Shown here piece by piece: positions 727-41,900 of a stretch of 64,000 nucleotides of DNA; positions within the stretch are counted from its first letter, which is position 1, and every line of letters begins with the position of its first letter. Position numbers and translations under genes: made by a program. The stretch is from an uncultured archaeon. Lineage in GTDB: Archaea; Asgardarchaeota; Thorarchaeia; Thorarchaeales; Thorarchaeaceae. The stretch spans positions 37,995 to 101,994 of the forward strand of contig CAYWJO010000008.1 in assembly GCA_964458565.1 (NCBI GenBank), read 5' to 3'. The notes below the pieces were generated by a model. It was given only the letters and a program-made list of their open reading frames with translations. It was not told where the DNA came from and searched no databases.

Positions 727-2661
727 ATGGGCTTGAAAGTGAAGTACGTGGAACAACTAAAAGAAATATTTGAGGATCGTCTCATTACTGCAAAGCACGA
801 ACTTCTCCTCCAAGGGATTGACGTGGGCACACTTCCAAAACAGGTTGGATGGCTCATGAATCCAAATCCAGATGCTGTGGTACAACCGATATCCCCTGAG
901 GAAATTCAATCTCTATACAAGTTCGCCAATGAGACAAAGACCCCAATTGTACCTAGAGGGGCAGGGACATCAGGTTACGGGGGTGCGATTCCACGTAAAG
1001 GTGGAATAGTTGTTGATATTCGTCGAATGGACAAAATCCTTGAAATCGACAAAGAGAATATGACTGTAACAGTGGAGCCAGGAATCACTTGGTCTAATCT
1101 ACAGTTCGAACTAAGTCAACACGATCTTGATGTGCCATGTTATCCATCCTCCGGTCTCTCAGCAACAATCAGTGGATGGGTCGCTCAAGGTGGAGACGGT
1201 ATCGGGTCTCTTAAGTATGGAAAAGTCAATGATATAGTTGAAGAGTTGCAGGTCGTTCTTCCTGATGGTAGAATAGTCACAACGAAAGATAACGACCTCT
1301 TCTGTGACACCGAAGGAATTTTGGGAATCATCACAAAGATCACGCTTAAGATAAAACCACTCAGACCAATTCATCCTATTGTTGTCAGCTTTCCTGAGAA
1401 CTACCAACTAGTATTCGCTATTGAGCACATCTTAGAAGAAGGTCCATTACCCTACACAATGAAATTCAAGGAATCCAAATACATTGACTTGAAGAAGAGA
1501 GCTTGGGATAGCGATGAGCCCTTCCCATTCCCCGTACATCATGGTGTCTTGATGGTCGCCTATGAGGGTGATGATATAGAAGAAGGCTTTCGAGTTGTTG
1601 AAGCGGTCACAGAGAAATTTCAGGGGACCGTCTATGACCAGCATGTTGCTGACCATGAATGGGAAGAGAGATTCTACCCGATGAAGATAAAGAAACTTGG
1701 TCCTACCCTTGTTGTTGGCCAAGCATTTGCACCACTTGAAACTCTTGAGGCGCTCCTTGATGATTTCCATTGGGAACAAGCTTCAGCAGAAGCAGGTATG
1801 GATGGTTGGGTGACGACGAAAAATGGTGTGACCCTCATGGGTTATTTCCTTGAAGATGAACGTCGAAGATTATTCATGCTCTCCTGGTCTCAAAGCTTCC
1901 TCATCTGGAAGCTCGCGCAAAGGCATGGTGGTCACCCTCACAGCACAGGCATATGGTTTGCCAACTATGCACCGCAGTACTTTGGAAAACGGAGACTCGC
2001 TAGGATTCGTGCTGCGAAGACTGAACTTGACTCGAAGAACGTATCGAACCCTGGTAAGATATTCGCTTACTGGTTACCCTGGATGCTTCGAATTGGGAAG
2101 TATTTCATGTGGATTACTTTCGACATGATGCGAAATGGATTCGGTAGAAGCGCACCCCCCTATCTTCGATTGTTGCAGAATATGCCTCCAATCAAATGGA
2201 TTCTCCGATGGGGTAGGGCACACAGTCCTTGGCCGCTTCAGTATGGTCTAGGTTGTTGCATGGTAGAAGGTGCTGCCGCAGTTGCTTCAAGATGGGACTT
2301 CGAACGTTTCGGAATGCTACCACTCTTCGCACCAAGGCAGACCGATGTGTTATGGATTTCTGGATCCCTTACAAAGAAGATGGCAAAGCGTCTCAGAAGA
2401 ATCTATGAACAGATGCCTGAACCCAAGTTCGTTATTGCTTATGGCCAATGTGCTGCGAGTGGCGGCATGTTTTGGGATGGCTACAGTCTCATTTCACCAC
2501 CTGACTCAGTTGTACCTGTAGATGTTTACGTACCTGGATGTCCACCAAAACCATCCGATCTCATGCGAGCACACATTATTCTACAGAACAAGATTCGCGC
2601 TGGTACAACTCACTGGCAACAAAACTATGAGAATCAAGATGCTATGGGATTCTGGAAATAG
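727..2661 (+). CDS. Fusion of a FAD-binding oxidoreductase (GlcD/VAO fold) and a C-terminal complex I NuoB subunit
   Basis: N-terminal PRGAGTSGYGGAIP, VEPGI, ATISGWVA, TEGILGIIT and NPGKIF (ends ~2064). From ~2209: WGRAHSPWPLQYGLGCC...ERFG...PRQTD...YEQMPEPKFVIAYGQCAASGG...PVDVYVPGCPPKP, which is NuoB with the tandem CC. No stop between the two parts. Confidence 0.93.
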   Translation: MGLKVKYVEQLKEIFEDRLITAKHELLLQGIDVGTLPKQVGWLMNPNPDAVVQPISPEEIQSLYKFANETKTPIVPRGAGTSGYGGAIPRKGGIVVDIRRMDKILEIDKENMTVTVEPGITWSNLQFELSQHDLDVPCYPSSGLSATISGWVAQGGDGIGSLKYGKVNDIVEELQVVLPDGRIVTTKDNDLFCDTEGILGIITKITLKIKPLRPIHPIVVSFPENYQLVFAIEHILEEGPLPYTMKFKESKYIDLKKRAWDSDEPFPFPVHHGVLMVAYEGDDIEEGFRVVEAVTEKFQGTVYDQHVADHEWEERFYPMKIKKLGPTLVVGQAFAPLETLEALLDDFHWEQASAEAGMDGWVTTKNGVTLMGYFLEDERRRLFMLSWSQSFLIWKLAQRHGGHPHSTGIWFANYAPQYFGKRRLARIRAAKTELDSKNVSNPGKIFAYWLPWMLRIGKYFMWITFDMMRNGFGRSAPPYLRLLQNMPPIKWILRWGRAHSPWPLQYGLGCCMVEGAAAVASRWDFERFGMLPLFAPRQTDVLWISGSLTKKMAKRLRRIYEQMPEPKFVIAYGQCAASGGMFWDGYSLISPPDSVVPVDVYVPGCPPKPSDLMRAHIILQNKIRAGTTHWQQNYENQDAMGFWK

Positions 2662-26548: not shown

Positions 26549-26992
26549 ATGCGGCTCTTCATGGACTTCCTTCCAGTAATAATCTGGGCTATACTTGCAG
26601 GTGCACTCGTTGTTATAATGCTGCTCACATCGTGGTTTTTGAGACCTCATACTCTACAGAATTCCGAAAAAACCGCGTCCTATGAATGTGGTGAGGAACC
26701 CATAGGTCCCGCTAGAATCTCATATCCCTATAATTACATCGTATATACCGTTCTGTTTGTTGTAGTTGATGTATTGACGGCATTCCTATGGCTATTCGCA
26801 TCTGCGTCTTGGGATATTCGAGGTTCCGTTCTTATTGTTAGTCAAGCTATCATTTTTACTCTCATCATAATGATTGGTATCTGGTATGCTGTAAGTAGAA
26901 TTCCGGAAACCATTCTCGATGGATCCGAAACTCTTGCGTTGTATAGAGAAGCAAAAGCCAAACGGGACAAGGAGGTTGAAACGACACATTGA
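26549..26992 (+). CDS. nuoA: Complex I-like subunit A
   Basis: KTASYECGEEP, LFVVVDV; 3 TM helices. Confidence 0.9.
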   Translation: MRLFMDFLPVIIWAILAGALVVIMLLTSWFLRPHTLQNSEKTASYECGEEPIGPARISYPYNYIVYTVLFVVVDVLTAFLWLFASASWDIRGSVLIVSQAIIFTLIIMIGIWYAVSRIPETILDGSETLALYREAKAKRDKEVETTH

Positions 26993-27660
26993 TGCAACTG
27001 GATGAAGCCACACTTATCGGTATAGCTGAACCCTTAGAATTCTTAGCTGTCACAATTGCAGTGATCATCCTCGCGTATCTTGCACTTGAGCATAAGGACA
27101 TTGTATATGCGGCATTCTTCTTCGGTCTGATGGCTGCTGTTGTGTCAGGGTATTTCCTATTCCTCGAAGCCCCCTTTGTTGCCGGTATGCAGATTGCAGT
27201 GTACACCGGCGGAATTAGTGCATTAATCGTCTTTGGTGTTCTTTTGCTCCCAAGATCTCAGGATTCATCATTGGAAACTTTCCCTTCACTAGAAAAGAGC
27301 AGAATTGGTAAGTTGATTGCTGCAGCTGTGACAGCACTTTCTGCGGCTCTTGCTTTGACTTACCCTGGTGTTTGGCAGACTGCACCCTCATATGCTGGTA
27401 TTGAAAGCGAAGGAGCGAATTATTTCTTAGAGGAACTTGCAGTCTGGCTTTGGCAAGATCACGGTATCCTAATACAAATTGTTGGTTTGATTATTCTAAC
27501 AACTCTCGTGGGCACAATCGCCATAATGAGAATGGAGAAAGCTGAGCGACTAATACCTCTGAAATCTGATTTTGGAATTGAAGTCATTGACCTTGAAAAA
27601 GAGGATGATCATGAAAGTGATCAAGAAGTATCGTCTTCTTCGGAGGTAGAGGACCAATGA
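26989..27660 (+). CDS. nuoJ: Complex I-like subunit J
   Basis: LEAPFVAGMQIAVYTGGISALIVFGVLL. Confidence 0.88.
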   Translation: MMQLDEATLIGIAEPLEFLAVTIAVIILAYLALEHKDIVYAAFFFGLMAAVVSGYFLFLEAPFVAGMQIAVYTGGISALIVFGVLLLPRSQDSSLETFPSLEKSRIGKLIAAAVTALSAALALTYPGVWQTAPSYAGIESEGANYFLEELAVWLWQDHGILIQIVGLIILTTLVGTIAIMRMEKAERLIPLKSDFGIEVIDLEKEDDHESDQEVSSSSEVEDQ

Positions 27661-27986
27661 TGCCACTTTATGCATATGTTTTGGTAGCCTTTATCCTAGT
27701 TGGGATGGGCGCATACGGGATGATGGTCAAACGCAATCTCATTCGTATTCTTATCGGAGCAGAAATTATGGGTAATGGGGTTCTAATTGCACTAATCGCA
27801 TTTGCCATGTATGGCCCTACTGCTGGTGTCTATACTTTTGCAGGTCAAGGGCTAGTAGTCCTTGTCATATCCGTTTTTGCAGCCCATACAGCACTAGCTA
27901 TGGTCTTGATGCTTATGTACCATAGAAGATATGGACATGTCGATCTGGGAAAGGTGGTTATTTTGGAGGATGAGCATTTTGACTGA
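27657..27986 (+). CDS. nuoK: Complex I-like subunit K
   Basis: KRNLIRILIGAEIMGNG, GQ; 3 TM helices. Confidence 0.88.
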   Translation: MMPLYAYVLVAFILVGMGAYGMMVKRNLIRILIGAEIMGNGVLIALIAFAMYGPTAGVYTFAGQGLVVLVISVFAAHTALAMVLMLMYHRRYGHVDLGKVVILEDEHFD

Positions 27987-28536
27987 AGTACTACATGTCG
28001 CAGCAGCGACATTTGCTCGAGAGGTGATCAACAAATTTCCAGATGTTGAATCTAAGCCTCTTAATGATAATGGAGTTGAGCTCATCACTCCACGAACACA
28101 TATCAGAGATATCGTAAACATGATTGACGAACGATTTGACGACGCATTTCCAGAATTAGTCTTTGGTGTTGATTTGGAAGAGGGTAATTTCGAAGTAATC
28201 TACATATTCTGGATGAGATCCTCCAGTCTTCTTCTCCAGATACGCATTCCCTTACAAGAGAATGATCTCTGGGTAGACACTGTTTCAGATATATTCCCAG
28301 GTTTTGAGTGGCATGAGAGAGAAACCCATGAAATGTTTGGCATTGATTTCAAAGGTCACCAAGATCTTCGACTTCTTCTGTTGCCTGATGAGCTAGAGGG
28401 GCAGTATCCCCTGCGAAAGAGCTTCAAGACTGATAGAAGCCGATTGGAAGAGAGTGGATTGACTGTCCCGAAACCAAAGCCATCCCCCTCAGCGAGACCT
28501 GATGATAAACCAGCAAAGGAGGCTGATAGCGAATGA
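27970..28536 (+). CDS. nuoC: Complex I-like subunit C
   Basis: WHERETHEMFGIDFKGHQDLRLLLLP...YPLRKSF; start probably ATG 27970 or TTG 27979. Confidence 0.9.
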   Translation: MSILTEVLHVAAATFAREVINKFPDVESKPLNDNGVELITPRTHIRDIVNMIDERFDDAFPELVFGVDLEEGNFEVIYIFWMRSSSLLLQIRIPLQENDLWVDTVSDIFPGFEWHERETHEMFGIDFKGHQDLRLLLLPDELEGQYPLRKSFKTDRSRLEESGLTVPKPKPSPSARPDDKPAKEADSE

Positions 28537-29672
28537 AGCCGGATATATCTGACGAAGCTGTTGAATTGTGGTTTGGCCCGCAGCACGTAGCAGCACATGG
28601 TTGGGCTACGAAACTGACTCTCGTTGGAGACTATATAGTTGAATGTGATCCTAATGCAGGTTATTTCCATAGGTCAGCTGAGAAATGTTTGGAGTTCCGG
28701 AATTTCCGGCAGGGTGCACTTATCATGGAACGATTGTGTATGCCTGAAGCATTTCTTGCAGAATATCCGTATGTTCAAGCCGTTGAAAAAATCGCTGAGA
28801 TTGAGGTACCTGAAAAAGCGAAGTTCATGAGAACCATCATGATGGAGGTCAGTCGAATTCATAGTATCCAATTCTGGTGGGGTCAACTGGCAGGTGAACT
28901 AGGACTCTTTACAATGGTACTATGGCCATGGATTGATCGAGAGTACACATTGGATGCATTCGAAGAACTTACTGGCTCACGCCATGCCGTTACATACAGC
29001 ACTCCTGGTGGCGTCAAATACGATTTCACAGATGAATTCCTTAGAAGATTGGATTTAGCAATCTATCATTTAGAAAATCATCTTGGTAAATTCAAAGATA
29101 TGATTTTAAAAAGTCCCACTTTCAAAGCTCGTGCGCAGAATGTAGGTTTATTCTCTACCAAAGAAGCATTGAAACTTGGACTTAGTGGTCCCAATATCCG
29201 TGCATGTGATTATCCAATGGACCTACGGAAAGATGCTCATGATCCCAATCTCAAATACGACCAAGTTGACTGGGAAGTCCCTGTTTTGGTGAGTGAGGAG
29301 CATGGTTCAGGAATGTGTGATGCATATGACAGGATGATTCAGCGTTTCAATGAAGTTGATGTAGCCCTTCAGATTATCAGGGGTCTCCTGCCACAAGTTC
29401 CTGAGGGTCCTATAATCGACCCCAAAGTTAGAGCTAAGACCAATAGACTCCCCGCAGGGGAAGCGTACGGACGAGTTGAGGGTGCAAGAGGAATCTCAAC
29501 ACTTTGGCTCAAGACTACAGATAAGGCACAGACTCCATATAGAGCCAAAATCCGAGGTCCATGCTTTAATTCGTATTATGCCTTAAAACATTTAATGCCC
29601 GGACTCCGGTTCGCAGACTTTGTTCTCGTCTTTGGGAGCCTAGATCCCTATGTCGGGTGGTGGGATCGATAA
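28533..29672 (+). CDS. nuoD: Complex I-like subunit D (no NiFe ligand set)
   Basis: GPQHVAAHG, GYFHRSAEK, EVSRIHS, LSGPNIRA, EGARG, C-terminal SLDPYVGWWDR; both CxxC pairs of hydrogenases are missing. Confidence 0.88.
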   Translation: MKPDISDEAVELWFGPQHVAAHGWATKLTLVGDYIVECDPNAGYFHRSAEKCLEFRNFRQGALIMERLCMPEAFLAEYPYVQAVEKIAEIEVPEKAKFMRTIMMEVSRIHSIQFWWGQLAGELGLFTMVLWPWIDREYTLDAFEELTGSRHAVTYSTPGGVKYDFTDEFLRRLDLAIYHLENHLGKFKDMILKSPTFKARAQNVGLFSTKEALKLGLSGPNIRACDYPMDLRKDAHDPNLKYDQVDWEVPVLVSEEHGSGMCDAYDRMIQRFNEVDVALQIIRGLLPQVPEGPIIDPKVRAKTNRLPAGEAYGRVEGARGISTLWLKTTDKAQTPYRAKIRGPCFNSYYALKHLMPGLRFADFVLVFGSLDPYVGWWDR

Positions 29673-30814
29673 TGGGAGGTTTGACATTGATGCAGTTTGA
29701 AGATTTCATTAATTGGCTGAATGGGATTCCTGGCTGGCTCTATGATGTCCTCGTCTGGTGGTTTAATGCTATCTGGTGGTGGATTAATCTACTCTGGGAC
29801 TCCATTGTTATAATCTGGGCTTCAATGTTTGGAAACGCAGAGGTATTGGCCTACTGGTTCAAAGCCATAGTGTTCCCTGGACTTGTCTTTATCCTTCTGG
29901 GAATTATATTTACAGTTTGGGCGACTCGTAAAACATGGGGCCGCATTCAAGGTCGACGAGGTCCATACAATCTTGGGAAATATGGTGGTCTACAGCTCTT
30001 CGCAGATGCGATAAAGTTGATTGGAAAAGAATCTATTATTCCTAAAGGAGCCAAGCGTTGGATGTACAGGTTCCTTCCATCCTTTCTATTGGTTATTGTT
30101 CTATTACCGTTTGTATTTATTCCATGGGACACTGATTGGGTGATTGTAGACCTTTCAGTTAGCTTGGTCTTGATCTTTGCATTTCTTACTGCAATTCCTG
30201 TTATTTCGCTCCTAGCAGGATGGATTAGTGGATCCAAGTATACCATTATCGGAGGTTTCAGAGCTGCAAATAACCAGTTTGCTTCTGAGATTCCATTAGT
30301 ACTGTCAACAGTTGGTCCTGCTATGCTAGCAGGTTCACTTAGCGTCTTGAGTATAGCACAGGTTCAGGCAGATTCTTTCTGGTTCATTTTCCTGTTGCCA
30401 TTGAACTTCGTTACGTTCCTGATTAGCGCTGTTATGTCAGTTGGAATGGTACCATTCGATGCACCTGTTGCCGACTCTGAGATTCTGTTTGGATGGCGAA
30501 CGGAATTTTCAGGAATTTGGTTCGTTATGACCTATTTTGCTGAATTTGCAGAGATGCTCTTTTACTCAGCAATGATGGTAACTCTATTCTTTGGAGGTTT
30601 CTCGGGTCCTGCATTCCTCCCTGGAATTGTAATCTTTCTCATCAAGCTCATGATAGTGATGTTCTTCTTCATTATAGTGACTTCATCATTCTATAGGCTC
30701 AGACAGGATCAGATTGTTTCGTTTAGTTGGAAGTACCTTCTTCCCTTGACAATACTAAACATTCTGATAGTCATGTTTGGAATGGCCTATTTTGGATTGT
30801 ACATAGGAGGTTAG
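29672..30814 (+). CDS. nuoH: Complex I-like subunit H with Trp-rich N-terminal extension
   Basis: RKTWGRIQGRRGP, GLQLFADAIKLIGKE, SKYTIIGGFR, PFD, RLRQDQ...WKYLLP; start uncertain between 29672 and 29690. Confidence 0.92.
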   Translation: MGGLTLMQFEDFINWLNGIPGWLYDVLVWWFNAIWWWINLLWDSIVIIWASMFGNAEVLAYWFKAIVFPGLVFILLGIIFTVWATRKTWGRIQGRRGPYNLGKYGGLQLFADAIKLIGKESIIPKGAKRWMYRFLPSFLLVIVLLPFVFIPWDTDWVIVDLSVSLVLIFAFLTAIPVISLLAGWISGSKYTIIGGFRAANNQFASEIPLVLSTVGPAMLAGSLSVLSIAQVQADSFWFIFLLPLNFVTFLISAVMSVGMVPFDAPVADSEILFGWRTEFSGIWFVMTYFAEFAEMLFYSAMMVTLFFGGFSGPAFLPGIVIFLIKLMIVMFFFIIVTSSFYRLRQDQIVSFSWKYLLPLTILNILIVMFGMAYFGLYIGG

Positions 30815-30817: not shown

Positions 30818-31249
30818 ATGAGTAAGTTAGGAACAATAGCAAACTCGCTCAGAATACTGCGACATGTATTCAGACGTATCTTCAAACGTCCGTTTACTTA
30901 CTTCTATCCTTGGGAGGATAGATATTATCCTGAATTGACTCGTGGAAGACATATTCATGTTAGAGAGAATTGTACCGCATGTAGTCAGTGTGTACGCGCC
31001 TGTCCAGTTGTTGCAATTCGTATTGACAAGGAGGACAAGAAGTATGAGAAGGACGCCGCCTTATACTTCGATTACTCACGCTGTCTCTTCTGTGGACTTT
31101 GTGTTCAAGCATGCAATTTCGATGCACTATTTCACACTCCTATCGTCGATCTAAGCGCTGATAGCCAAGAGAAACTCATCTATGGACCTGACAGGATAAC
31201 GAAGATCGAACGGGAACCACTCGAGTGGCGAGGGAGGAAGATCAGATAA
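30818..31249 (+). CDS. nuoI: Complex I-like subunit I (2x4Fe-4S)
   Basis: TYFYP, RGRH, CTACSQCVRACP, CLFCGLCVQAC. Confidence 0.92.
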   Translation: MSKLGTIANSLRILRHVFRRIFKRPFTYFYPWEDRYYPELTRGRHIHVRENCTACSQCVRACPVVAIRIDKEDKKYEKDAALYFDYSRCLFCGLCVQACNFDALFHTPIVDLSADSQEKLIYGPDRITKIEREPLEWRGRKIR

Positions 31250-32802
31250 TGCAACTAGGTGCCCTGCTTGATTTCCCATTTATGACTCTATCATTGGGAA
31301 TATTATTCATAGGAGCTCTCTTCATCTACCTATTCAGAAACTCGCTAAAAGAACAAGCTGGAAAGGTTGCTGTCATTTACTCATTCTTAGGAATGCTAGC
31401 AATGATTCCTCCGTTTTACGAACTAATCGTAAATGGTCATCCAGCAAGTGAAACCGCCAGATGGTCCATCGTCATTGGCGAGTGGGGCCTCTATCTAGAT
31501 GGCATCGCTTTTCCAATCACCTTTGCAATAGTAGTTCTTGGTTTCCTTTCAGTAGTGTACGCTGTCGGATATACCGAACACACAAAGAACAAACCAACAT
31601 TCTTTGCAAATCAACTGTTCTTCCTCATGGGAATGCAATGGGTGACACTTGCTACAAATCTCATCGAGTTTTTCATAGCTTGGGAATTAATGCTGGTTCC
31701 ATCTTATTTCCTAATTCTCTTCTGGGGTCTCCCAGAAACTCGTAAGCGAACAGCTCTGAAATTCTGGCTGTACACACAATCAGGTGCAGTCTGTATTCTA
31801 GTTGGTTTTGGTCTCTTGTATGCATTTACCGGAACCTTCGAATTATATGCCCTTGGTTCGGGCATTATTGATGTTCTCGCTGCAACTCCAATTGCACTTG
31901 AATTGTCAAAACTAATCTTCATACTTCTCGCAGCTGGCTTCTTAGTCAAGATGGCTGTATTTCCGATCCACTGGTGGTTACCTCCAGTCCACGCTGAAGC
32001 ACCCACTCCAATCTCAGTCTTGCTTTCTGGAGCGATGATCGAGACCGGTGCCTATGCACTTGTTCGATTTGCTCAGATTACTCTAGGTTTTGAAACTGCA
32101 ATCGACTTGAGTTTCTATATCGGGGCTATCGGTGTAATTACGATGTTCTATGGAGGTTTCATGGCTCTTGCCCAGAAGGACATCAAGCGACTCCTCGCTT
32201 ATAGCTCGGTTTCTCAGATGGGCTATGTTCTGTTTTCTTTAGGAATGTACACATCCTTTGGAATGGCCGGAGGTCTCTTTCATCTCATCAATCACGCTTT
32301 CTCGAAGGGTCTCTTGTTTATGACTGCCGGGGCGGTTATACATCAAACTGGTTTACGGGATATCGATAAAATGGGCGGCCTCTCAAACAAAATGCCAATC
32401 ACTGCATTCGCTGCGGCGATCGGAGCATTGAGTATAGCAGGGAGTCCACCTCTCTCAGGATTTGCCAGCGAGTGGATGATGTTTCTTGGAGGATTCCAGC
32501 GTGCTTTTGATAGTACTCCTATCAGCCTTCCGTTTCTCATCCTATCAATACTTGCAGTATCAAGCTCCATCCTGAGTGCAGGCTACATGCTCAGATTCCT
32601 GTGGAGAGTATTCCTTGGTCCTCATCCAAACGAACTCGAGAATGTCACAGAGACGTCACGATGGATGTTATTACCCATGGTTGCACTAGCCGTGCTTGTC
32701 GTCATCTTTGGTGTCTTCCCAGGATTGGCTTTGGATATCATTGGTGGAGCGGTGGAGCATATTTCGGAAATCATTGGTACCTTTGCAGGAGGTGGACATT
32801 AG
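31249..32802 (+). CDS. nuoM: Antiporter-like subunit, additional NuoM-type copy (M1)
   Basis: FFIAWELMLVP, KFWLYT, KMAVFPIHWWLP...AEAPTP, KRLLAYSSVSQMG, GFASEW; start ATG 31249 overlaps the nuoI stop. Confidence 0.8.
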   Translation: MQLGALLDFPFMTLSLGILFIGALFIYLFRNSLKEQAGKVAVIYSFLGMLAMIPPFYELIVNGHPASETARWSIVIGEWGLYLDGIAFPITFAIVVLGFLSVVYAVGYTEHTKNKPTFFANQLFFLMGMQWVTLATNLIEFFIAWELMLVPSYFLILFWGLPETRKRTALKFWLYTQSGAVCILVGFGLLYAFTGTFELYALGSGIIDVLAATPIALELSKLIFILLAAGFLVKMAVFPIHWWLPPVHAEAPTPISVLLSGAMIETGAYALVRFAQITLGFETAIDLSFYIGAIGVITMFYGGFMALAQKDIKRLLAYSSVSQMGYVLFSLGMYTSFGMAGGLFHLINHAFSKGLLFMTAGAVIHQTGLRDIDKMGGLSNKMPITAFAAAIGALSIAGSPPLSGFASEWMMFLGGFQRAFDSTPISLPFLILSILAVSSSILSAGYMLRFLWRVFLGPHPNELENVTETSRWMLLPMVALAVLVVIFGVFPGLALDIIGGAVEHISEIIGTFAGGGH

Positions 32803-35037
32803 ATGCTGTTTGGTCTTCCTTACTATCTAATCCTAGTACTCCCACTTGGAGGGTCTTTACTAGTCCCGCTGGTTGGGAAATTCAGTGAAAAACTGCGAGA
32901 CTGGACTCCTGCTATCTTTATGGGCTTCGCTATGATTCTCTGCTGGTCTCTTCTCTTCGATTCATTTGATCCAGCACATCCGCCAAGTTGGACGTGGATT
33001 GAAATTCTAGGATTGAACTTTGAAATTCTACTAGACTCCCTGTCAGTAATAATGGCAATCCTATCTAGTACACTCTGTTTCCTCATCTATGTATACAGTA
33101 CAGAATACATGGCCCATGAGGAAGATAAGGACCGATTCTTCTTCATGATGCTTGCCTTCGGTGGAGGAATGCTCACTCTTGTACTCAGCAATAATCTGCT
33201 CATTGCCTTTATTGGATGGGAGATTATGGGATTCTGTTCTTACGGACTTATCGGATTTTGGAACGATAAACGTAATCCACCTGAAACTGATCCGACAGAT
33301 ATAGAGACCTCAAACCCTCTTCTGAAATTTGAGACCGAGGGTGAATACAATACACATTGTGGAACAAAGGCATTCATTGTAACACGAATTGGTGATGCCT
33401 TCATGTTGGGTGGTATCCTTCTACTCTTCCTATACACGGGAACCTTCTCATTCACCGAGATGGCAGCTGATTCACAGCATTGGTGGGGTACCATGGCAAG
33501 TGTCGGAATGCTGGTTCCAACATTTCTCTTGATTTTTGCTGGTGCTATTGGAAAATCTGGACAAGCCCCATTACAGGTGTGGCTTCCAGAGGCAATGGCT
33601 GGACCTACTGCAGTTTCTGCCCTAATACATGCTGCAACCATGGTAAAAGCGGGTGTGTACATCAGTGCACGTTTTCTAGTCACTATGGTTGGAGCATCGG
33701 GAGGTGGACATGCGGAGGAAGGTATGGTCGCATTACAAGCAGCGGGTCTGGAGGTCGCATCTGTGTTCTTTACGACCGTAGCAATAGTAGGTGCGATAAC
33801 AGCCATCATGACTGCAACAATGGGCATGGTTTCAAACGAGCTTAAGCAGGTTCTTGCATTTTCAACCTTGAGTCAACTTGGATATATGATGTTGGCAATA
33901 GGTACAGGAGGTCTCCTTGAACATTATGATCACGCGTATCTTGCTGGGGTGCTGCATGTTGTTTCTCATGGTGCGTTCAAGGCGCTGCTGTTTCTTGCAG
34001 CAGGTGGAGTCATTCACGCGATTCATACGAAGTATATGACGAAGATGGGAGGTCTCAAAAAGTATATGCGGAAGACCTTCATTGTGATGTGGATTGGTGT
34101 TCTTGCATTATCAGGTATACCGCCATTCTCTGGATTCTGGTCAAAGGACTCCATCATTGAATATACATACGAGCTCGCAGCACATGGAAGTGCTCTAGGT
34201 TGGGTGCTCTTTACATTTGCAGTACTCGCAGCAGCATGTACAATATTCTATAGCATGCGGCTTATGGGAATGACATTCTATGGTCCTGGCCGAGATGATG
34301 AGCATCACGAAGATACAGATCATCATGAGGAACTTGAGCATCACGAGGAACAAGAGGACAAAGATGAGCATGAACAAAATGACCATGGTCACTCAGAGCC
34401 ACATGATCCGGGTCCTGCTATGATGATTCCTCTATACATCCTTGCCGCCTTCACCATATTAGCTTTCATCGTGTATCCAATCATACAAGAATTCGTCTTA
34501 CAAGAGGGTCATACGTGGATAGAGAACTTGACCTATATGATTACTGTCAAGTTTAGCGCTGAGGGGATTACACCCTTCGTGATTACTCTGGGAGCTCTTG
34601 CTCTTGGAGGTATACCCGGGTACATGATGTACATTAAGAACTCAGACAAGCCCAACACATTCGTACCGGAAACTGGAGCACGACGTAAAGTGTTCAACTT
34701 CCTACGTCATCGGTGGTACATCAATGAGGCTTACGGTTGGGTACTCAATAAGTTCCTTAACTTTGCATCTTGGTGGAGAGAACGTATAGACAATATTATC
34801 ATTGATGGCATCGACTTCAAGTCTCGGGATGCTGCGTTAGCAATATCCACAAAGGTTCGCTGGGTCGATGATCATCTTGTTGATGGATTTGCTGAGGCAA
34901 TTTCAACAAAGAGCGTAGGTGCATCTGAAACAAGTAAGAAGGCACAGACTGGACTAATCAACGACTATCTGGGAATGATGCTATTCGGAGTTGGAATAAT
35001 GGTCATCATTCTTCTAGTAACACTAGGGGTGATCTGA
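32803..35037 (+). CDS. nuoL: Complex I-like subunit L with extended transverse helix
   Basis: WEIMGFCSYGLIGFW, KAFIVTRIGD, GKSGQAPLQVWLPEAMAGPTAVSALIHAATMV, GFWSKD, WY...DG...DG...QTG. Confidence 0.93.
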   Translation: MLFGLPYYLILVLPLGGSLLVPLVGKFSEKLRDWTPAIFMGFAMILCWSLLFDSFDPAHPPSWTWIEILGLNFEILLDSLSVIMAILSSTLCFLIYVYSTEYMAHEEDKDRFFFMMLAFGGGMLTLVLSNNLLIAFIGWEIMGFCSYGLIGFWNDKRNPPETDPTDIETSNPLLKFETEGEYNTHCGTKAFIVTRIGDAFMLGGILLLFLYTGTFSFTEMAADSQHWWGTMASVGMLVPTFLLIFAGAIGKSGQAPLQVWLPEAMAGPTAVSALIHAATMVKAGVYISARFLVTMVGASGGGHAEEGMVALQAAGLEVASVFFTTVAIVGAITAIMTATMGMVSNELKQVLAFSTLSQLGYMMLAIGTGGLLEHYDHAYLAGVLHVVSHGAFKALLFLAAGGVIHAIHTKYMTKMGGLKKYMRKTFIVMWIGVLALSGIPPFSGFWSKDSIIEYTYELAAHGSALGWVLFTFAVLAAACTIFYSMRLMGMTFYGPGRDDEHHEDTDHHEELEHHEEQEDKDEHEQNDHGHSEPHDPGPAMMIPLYILAAFTILAFIVYPIIQEFVLQEGHTWIENLTYMITVKFSAEGITPFVITLGALALGGIPGYMMYIKNSDKPNTFVPETGARRKVFNFLRHRWYINEAYGWVLNKFLNFASWWRERIDNIIIDGIDFKSRDAALAISTKVRWVDDHLVDGFAEAISTKSVGASETSKKAQTGLINDYLGMMLFGVGIMVIILLVTLGVI

Positions 35038-36612
35038 ATGCAACTAGTAGACTTCGTTCTTAACCTCCCATTAGGAATCCTTGAGATAATGTTGCTCCTC
35101 CCCATTGCAGGAGCATTCTTGGCTTTCTTGGCCGGCAATAAGGCTTCAAGGATTGTAGCATTACTCATCACCACAATCGAACTTGCCTTATCCCTTATCC
35201 TCGCTCTGGCATATGTTCCCCCTACAACAGTATCAGATTTAGGCATCATGTTCAACTCAACTTATCCAATAGCTGACCTAAGTAGTGTCGGTGGAACAAC
35301 ACTACAGTTTGAGCTGGGTGTTGATGGAATTTCAGTTGTCATGATTATACTAGCTAATCTTGTTGTTTGGATAGCAGCGATAAGCTCGAATCACATCCAT
35401 GAATCAGAGAAGTCATATTATTTCTTCTTTCTCTTGCTTCAGACAGGACTCCTAGGAGTTTTCATGTCATTAGATTTGATTGGATTTTTCGTATTCTGGG
35501 AGCTTGTTCTAATCCCCATGTTCTTCATAATAGGGCGCTGGGGTGAGGAAGGTTGTCAGCATGCAGCAATCAAGTTCTTCATCTATACCCACTTAGGATC
35601 AGCTGTATTGATAGTGAGCTTCTTTTCACTCTACTTCTTAGCACCTGAACCTACTTTCAGTATGATTGCACTGAGAGGAATGGGACTTCCTATGATGGTG
35701 CAGTTTGGTTTTGCAATCGCTGTCTTTGTTGGTGCTGGAGTTAAACTACCAGTCTTTCCACTGCACAACTGGCTTCCATGGGCTCATGTAAAAGCACCTA
35801 CGCCAGGTTCTGTCATCCTTGCAGGAATTCTGCTTAAAATGGGTGGATATGCCTTCATTCGTCTGGGTCTCTGGATGGTTCCTGAGGCTTTCTCACGATT
35901 AGCACCAATATTTGCAATTGTTGCAATATTCACATGTATCTACGCGGCATTTACTGCGATGGCTCAAACTGATATGAAGAGCCTTGTCGCTTACACTTCC
36001 ATCAACCATATGTCGTGGGTGCTACTAGCAGTAGCAGTTGCTTCCATTGGAATCTATCCACCAGCTGGACTTGATATTGCTACAACAGAACTGCTGAAGG
36101 CAGCTGCAAATCTTGCAATTCAAGGTGCAGTGTTCATGATGTTCTCACATGGGACAATAATCTCAGTGATGTTCATTATGGCGGGTCAACTCAAATATGC
36201 GGCAGGAACCAGAGAGATTCCTGCTATTCAAGGCCTGATGGAGAAAGCTCCGCGTATGGCTGCAATTCTAATACTTGCTGCTTTTGCGGCTTTCGGTCTT
36301 CCTGGATTTAGTGGTTTCATCGCAGAGGCTTTGATACTCTTTGGCTCTGTTTCAATCTACATATGGGCTGCAGTAATTGGATTTGGTATCTTCATCACGG
36401 TTGGATATATCCTTTGGATGCTAAATAGGATCGTCTTCAGCGATCCCGATCCTGAAAAGGAAGTGACTGAGGCTCCATGGTCTGATCTGATTGCCCCAAT
36501 TCTGATGATGATCCCAGTTATTCTTCTGGGTCTCTGGCCCGATTTAATATTGTATCTAATTGATCCGATATCAAGATTGATGCTCGGTCTTCCACTTGGA
36601 GGTGTTCCATAA
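35038..36612 (+). CDS. nuoM: Complex I-like subunit M (M2)
   Basis: FFVFWELVLIPMFFIIGRWG, KFFIYT, KLPVFPLHNWLPWAHVKAPTPGSVILAGILLKMGGY, GFIAE. Confidence 0.92.
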   Translation: MQLVDFVLNLPLGILEIMLLLPIAGAFLAFLAGNKASRIVALLITTIELALSLILALAYVPPTTVSDLGIMFNSTYPIADLSSVGGTTLQFELGVDGISVVMIILANLVVWIAAISSNHIHESEKSYYFFFLLLQTGLLGVFMSLDLIGFFVFWELVLIPMFFIIGRWGEEGCQHAAIKFFIYTHLGSAVLIVSFFSLYFLAPEPTFSMIALRGMGLPMMVQFGFAIAVFVGAGVKLPVFPLHNWLPWAHVKAPTPGSVILAGILLKMGGYAFIRLGLWMVPEAFSRLAPIFAIVAIFTCIYAAFTAMAQTDMKSLVAYTSINHMSWVLLAVAVASIGIYPPAGLDIATTELLKAAANLAIQGAVFMMFSHGTIISVMFIMAGQLKYAAGTREIPAIQGLMEKAPRMAAILILAAFAAFGLPGFSGFIAEALILFGSVSIYIWAAVIGFGIFITVGYILWMLNRIVFSDPDPEKEVTEAPWSDLIAPILMMIPVILLGLWPDLILYLIDPISRLMLGLPLGGVP

Positions 36613-38135
36613 TGCAACCATTGACAGACTTAGTGAACCTCATAAGAGCACTGTTTAAACCATTCACAGATGTATTATTACAAGTCATGACTGACCTCAA
36701 TCTCGAGAGTTGGATAGGATCTCTTCCAGTCTTGACCCTAATCATCTTCGCACTATTGTCATTAGTAGCAAAGAAAGGGCGAATCCCAATTGTAATGAGC
36801 TTCATAGGTGTAATCCTTGCCACTATTCAAATGATAATGATTGAACCTATGGATTCATTCGGTGGCCTTTTCACGAGAGATGCATTTGCTGACTTCTTCA
36901 TCTACCTGATACTCATTGTAGCATTTCTTGTACTTCTATCAGCAACCACATTTGGAGGGGACAAGGGGACATATACCTTCATGTTGATGATGTCCTTTGC
37001 TGGAGCTATTTGGGTAGTTATGGCTACAGATCTGATTGCTTTGTTTCTCGCGTGGGAGCTGATGTCAACTCCAACCTATATCTTAACTGCGTTGGGTCCA
37101 CATCGAGGAGCTGTTGATGGTGCAACGAAGTACTTCATCATGGGTATGATGGCAACCGTATTCATGTTGTTTGGCATCGCTCTTGTTTATGGGGTCACAG
37201 GAGAGACCACGTTAAGCAAACTTGCAGAAGTGGTTAACACGATTTGGATATCAGGGTCTATCATGGATAATGCGGCATGGACACTAATCCTAGCAATGGT
37301 ACTATTTGTGATAGCCTTTGGTTTCAAAATAGGTATCTTCCCCGGATGGATGTGGGTCGCTGATACTTACGGGACTGCCGACGGGAGTGTTGTTGCATAT
37401 CTAGCTGGTGGTGCAAAGAAGACTGGTGTGAGTGCTGTCATGCGAATAATGATAGTAGGCTTCTTCATAGCACGATTCGAATGGATGCCTTTACTAATCA
37501 CGGTATCAATACTCACGATGGTCATAGGTAATGTTCTTGCTTTGCAATTCAATGAAGGTAAGTTCCCCATCAACAGAATGCTGGCGTATTCCAGTATTAC
37601 CATGATGGGATATCTCTTTGTTGGACTTGCTGCTGCTTCTGAGCTTGGAGCTGCTGCCGCGATGTTTCATGCATTCGCACATGCTTTGATGAAATCAGGG
37701 GCATTTATTCTAATTTGGGCGATGGCAATAACACTTGGTAAAGAGATTGATTACAATGATCTGAAGGGTCTTGGTAAGAGGGCTCCGACTTTGTCAGCCT
37801 TCTTAGCGATTCTAATATTCGCTCTTGCTGGTTTCCCATTGACGGTAGGCTTTTGGTCAAAGTGGATTCTTCTTCCGCAAGCTGCAGTTGAGGTTGGTCT
37901 CTGGTGGTTGGCGTTAATACTTCTATTGAATTCAGTCTTCTCTCTGGGATACTATCTTAGAGTATTGAAGTTCTGTTATTTCATGGAGCCAGAAGATGAC
38001 ACTCCGATAGTAATTCCAAAGCTACCAATGATTGCGGTAGGCATAACTGTGGTTGCAGTTTTAGTGCTATTTGCGTTCCCAGGTCTTGTTCTAGACTATG
38101 CGCTAGCGGCTGCAAACCTTCTATTCACCCCATGA
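36612..38135 (+). CDS. nuoN: Complex I-like subunit N
   Basis: WELMS, KYFIMG, GFKIGIFP..MWVADTY, RMLAYSSI, GFWSK, YYLRV. Confidence 0.92.
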   Translation: MQPLTDLVNLIRALFKPFTDVLLQVMTDLNLESWIGSLPVLTLIIFALLSLVAKKGRIPIVMSFIGVILATIQMIMIEPMDSFGGLFTRDAFADFFIYLILIVAFLVLLSATTFGGDKGTYTFMLMMSFAGAIWVVMATDLIALFLAWELMSTPTYILTALGPHRGAVDGATKYFIMGMMATVFMLFGIALVYGVTGETTLSKLAEVVNTIWISGSIMDNAAWTLILAMVLFVIAFGFKIGIFPGWMWVADTYGTADGSVVAYLAGGAKKTGVSAVMRIMIVGFFIARFEWMPLLITVSILTMVIGNVLALQFNEGKFPINRMLAYSSITMMGYLFVGLAAASELGAAAAMFHAFAHALMKSGAFILIWAMAITLGKEIDYNDLKGLGKRAPTLSAFLAILIFALAGFPLTVGFWSKWILLPQAAVEVGLWWLALILLLNSVFSLGYYLRVLKFCYFMEPEDDTPIVIPKLPMIAVGITVVAVLVLFAFPGLVLDYALAAANLLFTP

Positions 38136-38939: not shown

Positions 38940-41900
38940 ATGGAGAAAGGTAGTAGAGAAAGAGCCGTACGCGTTGCAGATACAATGCAACTTTTGGCAC
39001 GTTTGATTGTCTTAGTTATCATCATCCCAACAGCTGTTCTCTTGGCCGTTTATTTTCTGCTCGAACCAATTATCCTGGATGATTTCATCCGAGTCTTCTT
39101 CTCTGGATCGGTTGGTATTGGTCTTGGTGGATTACTGTTAATTCGTATGAAACGACCCAAACTGGGTGCGATTTTAATCGCAATTTCATCCTTACTGGGT
39201 GTTGTATCATTGTCACTTCTCTGGCAATATACTCATGCAATTGCGATTGCGATTCATTCCTTTCTTTTATTGAATCTTATTTCGTGTTATAACTTGCGAA
39301 GATCTGATGTCCTCAATGAAACCTCATGGAAAATTCTGAAGTCTCTCTTGGGAGTAATTGTCATATTATCTGGTGTGACAGCTAGTAGTCTATATTTCAT
39401 TGCTTTAGGATATGAATTGACATTTGTGGTTTTCACAACTGCTGCAACACTTTCTGTATACTTACTACTGAGTCAATATTTCTTGAGAACTCCCCAACTT
39501 GGAGTGCCAAATATCTGCATTCTATCTCTCAGCACTGGACTTTATGGTAACCATCTTCTCATTGAAAATATCATTTCTCCATCTATAGATTTAGTCTTCT
39601 CTTTCTTCCTGTTCAGTATCGGAATCGGATTTTTTGTATCATCTCTAGCTCTGCGTAGAATACAACTCTACTTATTCGAGCGTCCTCAACTAGAACAGAT
39701 CAAGAAGGAAAAGAAACGGCGTATTGACGATATGATTGGAATCGAGATTGAACAAACTGAGGAGGAGCCAATCGACGAAGTAGAAACTCCAGTTCAGATA
39801 GAACCTTGGGTTGTTGATCCCTTTCTTGCGTATGCTCTCACAGGTATTGGTACGTCTCTAATCGCAGCTGGAGTTCCATTCATCTTCCTTTGGTTTGCTT
39901 CCTTAACAGAGTGGAGTTCACTACCCACATTTCATCTTCTCATGTTCCCACTAGGAATGTTGCTAGGATTTCTTTTCTTTACACCATCTCCTGTCCTTTT
40001 TAGATTAGGGGAAAAAATCAATCGAGATACGGAAGGAATCATTGTACGAATAATTGGTACAACTATAATTGTCATATCATCTTTCTCTCTCTTTTCTTGG
40101 ATGCAGCACTTCAACTGGAATATTATCTACTCAATAGGAGCAAGCTTCATTCTGATTATTTCTGGTGTTACTGGTCTTTTCAGGGAAATTAGAAGATGGT
40201 GGCGAAGACAATGGTTGCGAATTGTTAGTACTTTCCGATATGTGAAATTATGGGTTCGAACACACCCGATTGGATCGGGATTATTTGCAAATATAATTTT
40301 CACTTTAGCAATTGTCTATTATCTTTCTCCATCTCTGATGGAATTTCCTCAGGCTCTTTTTGTACTTACTCTGATAGGTGCAACTATTTTCAGTGGAGTC
40401 GGTGTTATTGGTTTAGCAGCTTTTCGTGCTTTCCCAAAACGAAATCAGTTCCTCTCATACAGCTGGTTGGTCTTTATTGGTACTATTACTATGCTTGTCT
40501 ATTGGTATTTGAGCACAGTACTCGCATTCACACCAATCGATTCAATACGGTATTCGATGTTAGTTCTCCTTTGTACTGCGGCATTATTAAAAATCGAAGT
40601 TTCAAGAAAATTAGTTGCAGTGCCATACATCCCCGGTGTTCTAGCTGCATTATGGATTGTTTGGGACATCGAAACAGCTTCTTTGATTGTGTTCCGTCCA
40701 CTTCTGACAGTAGTTTTTTCAATTTGTTTGTGTGCACCAATCTTACGACCCGAATATACGCGGTTTGCGATTGCAGTTCGAGATACTCTTGTTGCTATAG
40801 GCTCAAGGATTAAAATAGTGTTGCTCCGAATAGGAGGAAAAATCAAGGTATTTCTAATTAGAGTTGGGACAAGAATAAAATCTGCACTGATACGGTTTGG
40901 CTCAGCAGTTAAATCTGTCTTTGTGAGAATTGGTACTGCCATTTATCGTGCCGTAGTATTCATAGGTCGTCTGCTAGTCAGTTTCATCTTTATTTCGTAT
41001 GCAGTGCTGCTCTTTGGTGGTTTATTCTTTGTAGGGTTCAACTTCATGTATCTTGGACTAGGATACGACTTTCTACTGATTGCCATCGTAATGGCAGTCT
41101 TATTCTTTATCCTATATCTTCCTCTACTTTCATGGAAAGGGAAGACTCAGACTCCTTTGATGTTAATTTGCTTACTTGGCTTAGCAATTTCTTCATCTAT
41201 CGCACTCTTCTATTTCCTTGATTCTTTTCCCATTGTAACTCGAATACTTGCTTCATTGGTTGTTGGTTCTTCTATCCTCTCATTAGGTAAGAGTCAACTT
41301 CCAGAATCAATGAAACAGCGTATAATTATCGTTACATGGATTTCAGTCGTGATTCTAATTAGCTCAATCTTCTATTATACTCAAACACACATACTTGGCT
41401 CAAGAAATGCCCTCTTGTTTGCCATTACATTCATCGGATTTGGAATCCTACCGCTTAAGCTATCTGAATCACTAGATTCACGTATTGTCGATCTCGTCTA
41501 CGTGGTGTGTGTAGTTCCTGCAGGTTTCCTTCTAATATTGGACTATTTTTGGATTTATGAAATCCTAATAGTCGGCATATCTTCTCTAATCGGTTTACTC
41601 GTGATGCTTTTACCGGTAGCTTATGACGAATACTACCGCGGTATAGCTTGGTTGTATCGGAAATTTGTATTTGCAGCCAAAATGATTGTCATGGTAATTG
41701 CACTCTATATTGTGGCATTCCTAGGACTTGTAGCACTTTCATTTGCTGCTCTTCTTATGTGGTTAGCTTGGCCAATTTTCGCTATATATTCCATTCCCAT
41801 TCTTCCAGCTACTATTACATTTCTAGTCATTCTCTTACTATTTTGGTTGCCAATTCTGAATCTACGTCGTGACGACAATCCTGAGCTCTACAGTTATTGC

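What the first reader, a model, noticed from the sequence alone, without database searches (positions are those of the whole stretch)
31249..36612. Four antiporter-like subunits (M-L-M-N): a '2M' complex I in an archaeon
Seen: two NuoM-type genes flank nuoL (31249-32802 and 35038-36612). Both have WELxLxP, KFxxYT and a TM12 Glu (GFASE, GFIAE). Known: canonical complex I has only L, M and N; 2M variants with an extra pump are described in some bacterial lineages and are proposed to raise the H+/e- ratio. Inference: the extra pump would suit a large redox span or reverse electron transport.
Basis: partly seen in the sequence, partly recalled or inferred. Interest (0 to 1): 0.8.

Follow-up and report, generated by a model that had tools for sequence, protein, structure and literature searches.

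The report
Four-pump complex I in Thorarchaeota
This Asgard (Thorarchaeota) archaeon encodes a relative of respiratory complex I with four instead of three ion-pumping subunits and a matching 26-residue extension of the helix that straps them together; this design is already published for bacteria and other archaea, so it is a new member of a known kind.

Summary
Observation confirmed. 31249-32802 (M') and 35038-36612 (M) are intact NuoM-type genes flanking nuoL in a tightly coupled operon, nuoA-J-K-C-D-H-I-M'-L-M-N. These are the genome's only four antiporter-like genes.

NuoL has a 26-residue insertion in its lateral helix (aa 670-695). It is present in all 14 archaeal M'-L-M-N operons examined and absent from 45 three-pump operons. 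This is the published hallmark of '2M' complex I. The operon is conserved in at least 55 other Thorarchaeia genomes.

- The two Ms are ancient paralogues (31% identical); a Thor-specific duplication is rejected.
- M' is the orthologue of the single NuoM of Nitrosopumilus-type archaeal complex I, so the canonical M between L and N is more likely the added pump.
- Archaeal 2M enzymes are already published (Thaumarchaeota).
- There is no NuoEFG, and NuoB is a flavoprotein fusion encoded elsewhere.

Helix length is not a perfect predictor: some Asgard L-M-N operons also have long helices. Five protons per two electrons, the redox partner and the direction are inferred, not shown. This scan reached the same conclusion on other Thorarchaeota genomes.

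The parts
26549..26992 (+). nuoA
   Evidence: Pfam Oxidored_q4, 67 bits
26989..27660 (+). nuoJ
   Evidence: Pfam Oxidored_q3, 69 bits
27657..27986 (+). nuoK
   Evidence: Pfam Oxidored_q2, 58 bits
27931..28536 (+). nuoC
   Evidence: Pfam Complex1_30kDa, 93 bits
28533..29672 (+). nuoD, a non-hydrogenase type
   Evidence: Complex1_49kDa, 199 bits. No CxxC nickel-iron motifs. The His equivalent to E. coli H224 is kept; the Tyr273 position is Met. Best solved relative is MbsL, 6u8y_L, 204 bits.
29657..30814 (+). nuoH
   Evidence: Pfam NADHdh, 288 bits
30818..31249 (+). nuoI (two 4Fe-4S clusters)
   Evidence: Fer4 families and TIGR01971
31249..32802 (+). M': archaeal-type NuoM, the first antiporter-like gene
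   Evidence: PF00361, 239 bits; TIGR01972, 309.5 bits. AF2 model has pLDDT 91.6, and its best folds are MrpA, NuoM and NdhD with TM 0.87-0.90. Key residues are E146, K234, E265, H345/H349/K353 and E408. It sits in the archaeal Mx clade.
32803..35037 (+). nuoL, 744 aa, with a lengthened lateral helix
   Evidence: NF005141, 495 bits. AF2 places helices at 626-636, 639-692 and 694-715, followed by TM16 at 719-740.
34810..34887 (+). 26-residue insertion in the NuoL lateral helix (aa 670-695)
   Evidence: Present in every L of a four-pump operon and absent from the three-pump L subunits in the alignments. The motif-to-motif distance is 79-80 against 51-55 residues. Similarity to the preceding 26 residues is weak.
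35038..36612 (+). canonical NuoM, the second M-type gene
   Evidence: TIGR01972, 418.7 bits. All best PDB hits are NuoM/ND4/NdhD. It clusters with E. coli NuoM. Key residues are E155, K236, K267, H324, H371 and E430.
36612..38135 (+). nuoN
   Evidence: PF00361, 177 bits. It clusters with E. coli NuoN. TM12 carries Lys.
727..2661 (+). FAD-linked oxidase fused to a NuoB domain; the probable NuoB subunit of this complex
   Evidence: FAD_binding_4 + FAD-oxidase_C + Oxidored_q6, with the GCC, GQC and PGCPP cluster motifs. The genome's other two NuoB-like genes are small subunits of group-3 hydrogenases. In four other Thorarchaeota records the fusion gene lies directly upstream of nuoA.

Best explanation
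The operon encodes one membrane-bound complex I-like enzyme. Its membrane arm holds four antiporter-like subunits in a row: NuoN, the canonical NuoM, the archaeal-type NuoM (M') and NuoL.

The NuoL lateral helix is one 26-residue module (about 39 A as a helix) longer than in three-pump relatives. This lets its C-terminal anchor helix still reach the proximal end of a longer arm.

Each of the four subunits keeps the TM5 Glu / TM7 Lys pair and a charged TM12 residue. The enzyme therefore probably moves five rather than four protons per two electrons.

There is no NADH-oxidising module. Electrons most likely enter or leave through NuoI and NuoB, from ferredoxin or from the flavoprotein fused to NuoB. 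My own arithmetic from textbook potentials runs as follows. Ferredoxin (about -450 mV) to a menaquinone-like carrier (about -75 mV) gives roughly 72 kJ per 2 e-, enough for about five protons at 150 mV. NADH would pay for only about three. In reverse, five protons would be enough to reduce ferredoxin from quinol.

Shown here: gene content, tight coupling, conservation, the helix insertion, key residues, phylogeny and fold. Inferred: assembly into one complex, the order of M and M', the stoichiometry, the donor and acceptor, and the direction.
For: 1. Four PF00361 genes, all in this operon and nowhere else in the 93%-complete genome. There are no Mrp small subunits (PF03334, PF01899) and no group-4 hydrogenase for M' to belong to.
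2. Gene junctions are -1, 0, 0 and -1 nt around M', L, M and N.
3. The order I-M'-L-M-N holds in all Thorarchaeia operons fetched (L019, L021, L024, L025, L030, L031; partial in L029, L032, L033) and in the sister family (L012). M' orthologues occur in 55 of 85 other family genomes and M orthologues in 56 of 85. The mismatches checked were contig ends.
4. The 26-residue lateral-helix insertion is present in 14 of 14 M'-L-M-N operons (Thorarchaeia, other Asgard, Bathyarchaeia, Nitrososphaeria). It is absent from 45 of the 46 measurable three-pump operons in this set. A five-pump operon carries a double-length insertion.
5. AF2 predicts helix through the insertion.
6. M' is a complete antiporter-like fold (pLDDT 91.6) with breaks in TM7 and TM12 and the key charges.
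7. This matches the published definition of 2M complex I: a second NuoM plus a lengthened NuoL with a 26-aa insert (PMC6606698, PMC9040806).
8. Weak support: five short contigs at 99% identity or more from a salt-marsh RNA library lie on M' and L.
Against: - No protein-level evidence exists; assembly and stoichiometry are inferred from genes.
- Lateral-helix length is not a clean counter of pumps. K-L-M-N operons of four other Asgard families have 80-105-residue helices with only three pump genes in the operon. One of those genomes (93% complete) has only three PF00361 genes in total. One four-pump operon (L058) has a double insertion.
- M' has Glu where canonical NuoM has the central TM8 Lys, so it might not pump like a canonical M.
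- NuoD lacks the quinone-binding Tyr, and no futalosine-pathway MqnA/D family was found, so the acceptor is unknown.
- AF2 confidence in the inserted part of the helix is below 50.
- The RNA contigs could be DNA carry-over.
Confidence: 0.75

Rival explanations
1. All four subunits assemble, but M' is a structural spacer or an altered channel rather than a fourth proton pump, so the stoichiometry stays at four or the ion differs.
For: M' has Glu (E265) at the position of the central TM8 Lys of NuoM/NuoN. It also has Gln at the position of NuoM H322.
Against: The whole archaeal Mx clade lacks this Lys (it has Gly or Glu). That includes the only M-type subunit of Nitrosopumilus-type complex I. 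M' keeps TM5 Glu, TM7 Lys and TM12 Glu, plus a NuoL-like HxxxHxxxK in TM11 that could supply the central axis. These residues are invariant or nearly so across 29 relatives.
Confidence: 0.1
2. M' and M are alternative occupants of a single M position, giving two three-pump isoforms, as cyanobacteria do with NdhD/NdhF paralogues.
For: Both are M-type. Cyanobacterial NDH-1 uses alternative paralogues (established knowledge). Some Asgard three-pump operons also have long lateral helices.
Against: Both genes sit in one translationally coupled operon and are gained or lost together across genomes. The helix insertion tracks the presence of both. Cyanobacterial alternatives are encoded at separate, separately regulated loci.
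Confidence: 0.07
3. M' belongs to, or acts as, a separate Mrp/Mbh/Hyf-type cation-proton module that is not docked in the Nuo arm.
For: By sequence, the best solved relatives of M' are MrpA (197 bits), MbsH' (194) and MbhH (193), ahead of NuoM (169). Plasmid hits are annotated MrpA.
Against: The genome has no other antiporter-like gene, no MrpE or MrpG, and no group-4 hydrogenase. M' falls in the M clade, apart from MrpA, MrpD and HyfB/D/F. It has the NuoM-type TM12 Glu. Its orthologue is the NuoM of Nitrosopumilus-type operons.
Confidence: 0.03

Closest known systems
'2M' complex I (Chadwick, Hemp, Fischer and Orphan 2018, ISME J 12:2668). I read it only through citing papers: Nitrospira clade 3 (PMC6606698), heterotrophic marine Thaumarchaeota clade 2 (PMC7300363), Chloroflexi (PMC7117926).
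   Same: A second NuoM-type gene in the nuo cluster. NuoL lengthened by about 26 residues in the lateral helix. Often no NuoE/F. A fifth proton and reverse flow to ferredoxin have been proposed.
   Different: The gene order is M'-L-M-N (Chloroflexi: L-M1-M2-N). The two Ms are ancient paralogues from different M sub-clades. M' has Glu at the TM8 Lys position. nuoB is absent from the operon and fused to a flavoprotein. Which Chadwick clade this belongs to could not be tested because reference sequences and the paper were not available.
Nitrosopumilus-type archaeal 11-subunit complex I (operon A-B-C-D-H-I-J-K-M-L-N; loci L060-L106)
   Same: The M gene precedes L and is the orthologue of M' (38-42% identity, same clade). 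No NuoEFG. L and N are related.
   Different: It has only three pumps: no canonical M between L and N. The lateral helix is 26 residues shorter. NuoB is free-standing.
Complex_I_3 of 'Ca. Manganitrophaceae', with five pumping subunits (PMC9040806)
   Same: Pumps added to a complex I scaffold, with a 26-aa insertion in the lateral helix.
   Different: That enzyme uses two MrpD-like subunits in place of NuoL and is bacterial. The window's enzyme has four pumps and a true NuoL.
Pyrococcus furiosus MBS and MBH respiratory complexes (PDB 6u8y, 6cfw)
   Same: MbsH' and MbhH are among the best solved sequence relatives of M'. MbsL is the best solved relative of this NuoD and likewise lacks the nickel-iron site.
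   Different: MBS and MBH carry an Mrp-like sodium module and only one or two antiporter-like subunits. This operon has NuoA/J/K/H/N/L as in complex I and no Mrp small subunits.
Mrp cation/proton antiporter (MrpA, MrpD)
   Same: The same 14-helix antiporter-like fold; MrpA is the top Foldseek and phmmer hit.
   Different: No mrpB/C/E/F/G genes. M' has TM12 Glu rather than Lys and lacks the C-terminal extension of MrpA. It is phylogenetically in the M clade.

Membership tests
2M-type complex I | Two NuoM-type genes plus NuoL and NuoN in one nuo gene cluster | tested here: met
   Four PF00361 genes in a row. Both M' and M pass the TIGR01972 cut-off, carry the NuoM motifs and fall in the M clade.
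2M-type complex I | NuoL lengthened by about 26 residues within the amphipathic lateral helix | tested here: met
   Insertion at aa 670-695. It is found in all 14 M'-L-M-N operons and absent from 45 three-pump operons. Caveat: some three-pump Asgard operons also have long helices.
2M-type complex I | Placement in one of the published 2M clades (1-3) | not testable with these tools
   The paper is not held and no Nitrospira, Chloroflexi or marine Thaumarchaeota reference sequences were available. The window's M groups with the M of Thaumarchaeal and Bathyarchaeial four-pump operons (SH-aLRT 99).
2M-type complex I | All four subunits physically in one complex, with five H+ per 2 e- | not testable with these tools
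   Needs purification, a structure or pumping assays.
Respiratory complex I (NADH:quinone oxidoreductase, 14 subunits) | NADH-oxidising module NuoE/F/G | tested here: not met
   No PF01512 (NuoF) match in the 93%-complete genome, and none in the operon.
Respiratory complex I (NADH:quinone oxidoreductase, 14 subunits) | Eleven-subunit core A, B, C, D, H, I, J, K, L, M, N | tested here: met
   Ten are in the operon. NuoB is present only as the C-terminal domain of the flavoprotein fusion at 727-2661, with tandem-Cys cluster motifs.
Respiratory complex I (NADH:quinone oxidoreductase, 14 subunits) | Quinone-site His and Tyr of NuoD | tested here: inconclusive
   The His is conserved; the Tyr position is Met, as it is a non-Tyr residue in other archaeal relatives. 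This depends on the alignment.
Group 4 membrane-bound [NiFe] hydrogenase (Mbh/Hyf/Ech) | Two CxxC nickel-iron motifs in the large subunit | tested here: not met
   None in this NuoD. Both are present in the NuoD homologues of three-pump Asgard clusters (G077, G072, L036, L042).
Mrp antiporter (M' as MrpD or MrpA) | Accompanying MrpB/C/E/F/G subunits, and a Lys in TM12 | tested here: not met
   No PF03334 or PF01899 in the genome. TM12 carries Glu. M' lies in the M clade, apart from MrpA and MrpD.

The most novel reading that the evidence does not exclude
The four-pump enzyme is an old archaeal invention shared by Thorarchaeia, other Asgard lineages, Bathyarchaeia and Nitrososphaeria. It was built by adding a canonical (bacterial-type) NuoM and one 26-residue helix module to an archaeal M-L-N enzyme. 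On this reading, the three-pump complex I of ammonia-oxidising Nitrosopumilales arose from it by loss, another Asgard family extended it to five pumps, and in Thorarchaeia it works with ferredoxin or its covalently fused flavoprotein as a five-proton machine, possibly in reverse to feed the Wood-Ljungdahl pathway.
Probability: 0.25. Interest if true: 0.65.

Novelty: new member of a known kind. Interest (0 to 1): 0.4.

Why it matters
Thorarchaeia are usually modelled as fermenters or acetogens. A lineage-wide complex I relative that has an extra pump and no NADH module means their energy budget includes a high-stoichiometry, probably ferredoxin-linked, membrane step. That bears on models of Asgard bioenergetics and so on scenarios for the archaeal host of eukaryotes.

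For complex I research, the archaeal four-pump and five-pump operons add natural cases where pump number and strap-helix length usually change together, with the exceptions noted. They also offer an M subunit with a NuoL-like central axis.

The architecture itself is already described, so the gain is in distribution and detail, not in kind.

Tried and rejected
- **M' as an Mrp/Hyf/Mbh subunit of a separate complex:** rejected. It is not in those clades, and the genome has no partner genes.
- **M' and M as a recent Thor-specific duplication:** rejected. They are 31% identical. The AU test gave delta lnL 222 and p about 1e-74 on 42 rows under LG+G4, with the group named after the tree was seen.
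- **The same AU test on 82 rows with the C20 mixture model:** it did not finish in three attempts.
- **Lateral-helix length as a universal pump counter:** rejected, because of long helices in three-pump K-L-M-N operons of Asgard families f9, f10, f11 and f26 and a double insertion in four-pump L058.
- **'Exact duplication' of a 26-residue helix module (a lead from earlier notes):** in this window only the length is exact. Similarity of aa 644-669 to aa 670-695 is weak: 4 identities, z = 2.6, and offset 26 gives the best self-score.
- **Chadwick et al. 2018:** not held.
- **Literature on this architecture in Thorarchaeota:** none found in the held library.
- **Expression:** one salt-marsh RNA library holds five short contigs on M' and L and none laid on the rest of the operon. 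These are contigs, not reads, so this says nothing about operon structure or expression level.
- **Quinone pathway:** the MqnA/D family was not found, so the membrane carrier is unresolved.
- **Complex prediction:** not run. The whole arm exceeds the size limit, and a pair of antiporter-like subunits would pass by likeness to solved complex I without telling their order.
Full report
**What is there.** The + strand of the window carries eleven genes with overlaps or gaps of -56 to +3 nt:
- nuoA 26549-26992
- nuoJ 26989-27660
- nuoK 27657-27986
- nuoC 27931-28536
- nuoD 28533-29672
- nuoH 29657-30814
- nuoI 30818-31249
- M' (an antiporter-like gene) 31249-32802
- nuoL 32803-35037
- nuoM 35038-36612
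- nuoN 36612-38135

All were assigned by Pfam and NCBIfam. The ATG of M' overlaps the nuoI stop codon and is preceded by GGAGG. L and N lack the first two motifs and have Lys instead of Glu in the third.

**Organism and genome context.** Close relatives of M' (70-82% identity) are nearly all from Thorarchaeota metagenome bins. The DNA is held by salt-marsh metagenomes. The genome (3.7 Mb, 93% complete) has only four PF00361 genes, all in this operon. It has no MrpE or MrpG family member and no NuoF. Its three NuoB-like domains are two small subunits of group-3 hydrogenases and the C-terminal domain of a FAD-linked-oxidase fusion at 727-2661. That domain has the tandem-Cys, GQC and PGCPP motifs of the complex I cluster N2 site. 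M' therefore has no other complex to belong to, and the operon's missing NuoB is most simply supplied by the fusion. In four other Thorarchaeota records (L021, L031, L032, L033) the fusion gene sits directly upstream of nuoA.

**What kind of subunit is M'.** It is not a recent copy of M.
- M' and M are 31% identical. M is closer to E. coli NuoM (35%) than to M'.
- Family models score M' about equally as NuoM (309 bits), MrpA (279) and HyfB (276). M scores 419 bits as NuoM and at most 167 for the others.
- Among solved structures, M' is closest by sequence to MrpA, MbsH' and MbhH (193-197 bits), ahead of NuoM (169). All best hits of M are NuoM/ND4/NdhD.
- Trees resolve this (FastTree on 157 rows; IQ-TREE LG+C20 on 82 rows). 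There are N, L and M clades, each with SH-aLRT 99, and MrpA, MrpD and HyfB/D/F fall outside the M clade.
- The M clade splits in two. One branch is the canonical branch: E. coli NuoM, a Planctomycetota NuoM, and the second M of every archaeal four-pump operon (SH-aLRT 99 for the archaeal group). The other is an archaeal branch ('Mx'). It holds M', the single NuoM of Nitrosopumilus-type operons and the M-position subunits of Asgard membrane-bound hydrogenase-like clusters.
- Forcing the Thor M' and M together costs 222 log-likelihood units (AU p about 1e-74, 42 rows, LG+G4; the group was named after the tree was seen).

**Key residues and fold of M'.** The residues fit this mixed position. M' has the TM5 Glu (E146), TM7 Lys (K234) and the NuoM-type TM12 Glu (E408). 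It has Glu (E265) where canonical M and N have the central TM8 Lys. It also carries the NuoL/MrpA-like HxxxHxxxK (H345, H349, K353) in TM11. An AlphaFold2 model is confident (pLDDT 91.6) and shows breaks in TM7 and TM12. It superposes equally well on MrpA, NuoM and NdhD (TM 0.87-0.90).

**Is the fourth subunit built into the complex?** The published mark of 2M complex I is a second NuoM together with a lengthened NuoL that has a 26-residue insertion in the lateral helix (PMC6606698, PMC9040806).
- Alignments show such an insertion in the window's NuoL at aa 670-695 (nt 34810-34887).
- It is present in every L from an M'-L-M-N operon: Thorarchaeia, the sister family (L012), three other Asgard operons (L058, L110, L116), Bathyarchaeia, and Nitrososphaeria other than the Nitrosopumilus group.
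- It is absent from the L of three-pump operons (Nitrosopumilus and relatives, Baldr-, Odin- and Heimdall-type hydrogenase clusters, second clusters in Thorarchaeia, E. coli).
- Measured between two conserved motifs, the helix is 79-80 residues in four-pump operons. The motif search returned 79-80 for eleven operons and 107 (the double insertion) for L058. L055 and L088, where it mis-hit, show the insertion in the alignment; L062 was not re-checked. The three-pump distance is 51-55 residues in 45 operons.
- A five-pump operon in another Asgard family (L113: Mx-Mx-L-M-N) has 107 residues.
- AlphaFold2 predicts helix through the insertion (639-692, 694-715, then TM16), but with low confidence there, as expected for a strap modelled without its partners.

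**Limits of that argument.** The sampled operons are kin, so the counts overstate independence. I see about three independent contrasts: within Nitrososphaeria, within Bathyarchaeia and within Thorarchaeia. There are also exceptions. K-L-M-N operons of Asgard families f9, f10, f11 and f26 have helices of about 80-105 residues with only three pump genes. One such genome (93% complete) has only three PF00361 genes in all. Four-pump L058 has a double insertion. A long helix is therefore needed for a fourth pump but does not prove one. The case for one four-pump complex rests on the combination of evidence:
- one translationally coupled operon;
- joint presence or absence of M' and M across genomes;
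- no alternative partner complex in the genome;
- M' being the bona fide NuoM of related three-pump enzymes;
- the insertion.

**Distribution.** M' orthologues (64-79% identity) occur in 55 of 85 other genomes of the family, in all of genera g2-g12. There are none in the 15 genomes of g13-g16. Those I fetched (g13, g15, g16) carry three-pump clusters, with hydrogenase-type NuoD homologues in g13 and g15. The canonical M is found in 56 of 85. The disagreements I checked are contig ends. The sister family has J-K-B-C-D-H-I-M'-L-M-N with a free-standing NuoB, so the four-pump arm is older than the NuoB fusion. Across 400 Asgard genomes, canonical-type M occurs in 104, and in none of the largest family (0 of 135).

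**Which M was added?** Nitrosopumilus-type operons read K-M-L-N, with an Mx-type M. The four-pump operons read K (or I)-Mx-L-M-N. The gene between L and N is thus the one without a counterpart in three-pump archaeal operons, and it is the canonical type. In the L, N and Mx sub-trees the Nitrosopumilus group is nested among four-pump lineages (SH-aLRT 92-98). This suggests that it lost the canonical M and one helix module. This is an inference from quick-search trees.

**How it probably works.** NuoD has no nickel-iron motifs, unlike the NuoD homologues of the three-pump Asgard clusters, so this is not a hydrogenase. Its best solved relative is MbsL, and the quinone-site Tyr is replaced, so the acceptor is not settled. 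No MqnA/D family was found. With no NuoEFG, the likely partner is ferredoxin at NuoI, as proposed for other truncated archaeal enzymes (PMC12533140), or the flavoprotein fused to NuoB. By my arithmetic from textbook potentials, a ferredoxin-to-menaquinone span can pay for five protons, and NADH or a 2-hydroxyacid cannot. Five protons flowing inward could also drive quinol-to-ferredoxin reduction, the role proposed for Nitrospira 2M enzymes (PMC6606698). None of this was tested here.

**Comparison and verdict.** The locus meets both testable defining features of 2M complex I. Archaeal members are already published (PMC7300363). I found no paper in the held library that describes this for Thorarchaeota. 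Earlier reports of this scan on other Thorarchaeota genomes reached the same conclusion. It is a new member of a known kind. The useful details are the ancient origin of the two Ms, the likely identity of the added pump, and the exceptions to the helix-length rule.

Noticed in passing
window 727-2661 (+): A FAD-linked oxidase (GlcD fold) is fused in frame to a complete NuoB domain with all the cluster N2 cysteines. It is the only non-hydrogenase NuoB in the genome. In L021, L031, L032 and L033 the same fusion gene lies directly upstream of nuoA. The sister family (L012) has a free-standing NuoB instead.
   Followed up: partly
L113 4357-12489 (G190:C1, another Asgard family): Five consecutive antiporter-like genes (Mx 510 aa, Mx 551 aa, L 677 aa, M 486 aa, N 489 aa) follow C-D-H-I-J-K. 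The NuoL lateral helix has a double-length insertion (107 residues between the two motifs). This is a candidate five-pump complex I relative. The five-pump enzyme of 'Ca. Manganitrophaceae', which is built differently, was described as unique (PMC9040806).
   Followed up: partly
L111, L112, L115, L118, L119, L120 (Asgard families f9, f10, f11, f26): These canonical-order K-L-M-N operons have long lateral helices (about 80-105 residues, with repeated FD..IDG-like motifs). G141 has only three PF00361 genes in its whole genome (93% complete); three other genomes I checked have further copies at other loci. They are exceptions to the rule that helix length counts pumps.
   Followed up: partly
window 34294-34416 (NuoL aa 498-538): A loop rich in His, Glu and Asp lies between TM14 and TM15 of NuoL. 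It is present in the Thorarchaeia family, variable in sequence and absent from other L subunits. AF2 confidence there is below 50. Its function is unknown.
   Followed up: no
window 28533-29672 (nuoD): NuoD lacks the nickel-iron cysteines and has Met at the position of the quinone-binding Tyr. Its best solved relative is MbsL of the Pyrococcus sulfane-sulfur reductase (204 bits), ahead of NdhH and Nqo4. The electron acceptor may not be a standard quinone.
   Followed up: partly
window 2932-15573 and 16922-23936: This stretch holds an NrfA-like multihaem cytochrome c, cytochrome c maturation genes (CcmF with TPR repeats, CcmC, CcmB, CcmA) and three further GlcD-like flavoprotein plus CCG iron-sulfur pairs. 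This respiratory-looking island lies beside the nuo operon.
   Followed up: no
window 38940-45263 (+): A 2107-aa open reading frame immediately downstream of the operon has no Pfam match.
   Followed up: no
L036, L038, L042, L016, L023: The three-pump clusters of Baldr-, Odin-, Heimdall- and some Thor-archaea have NuoD homologues with both CxxC motifs, so they are true group-4 hydrogenases. Their M-position subunit belongs to the same archaeal Mx clade as M'.
   Followed up: partly
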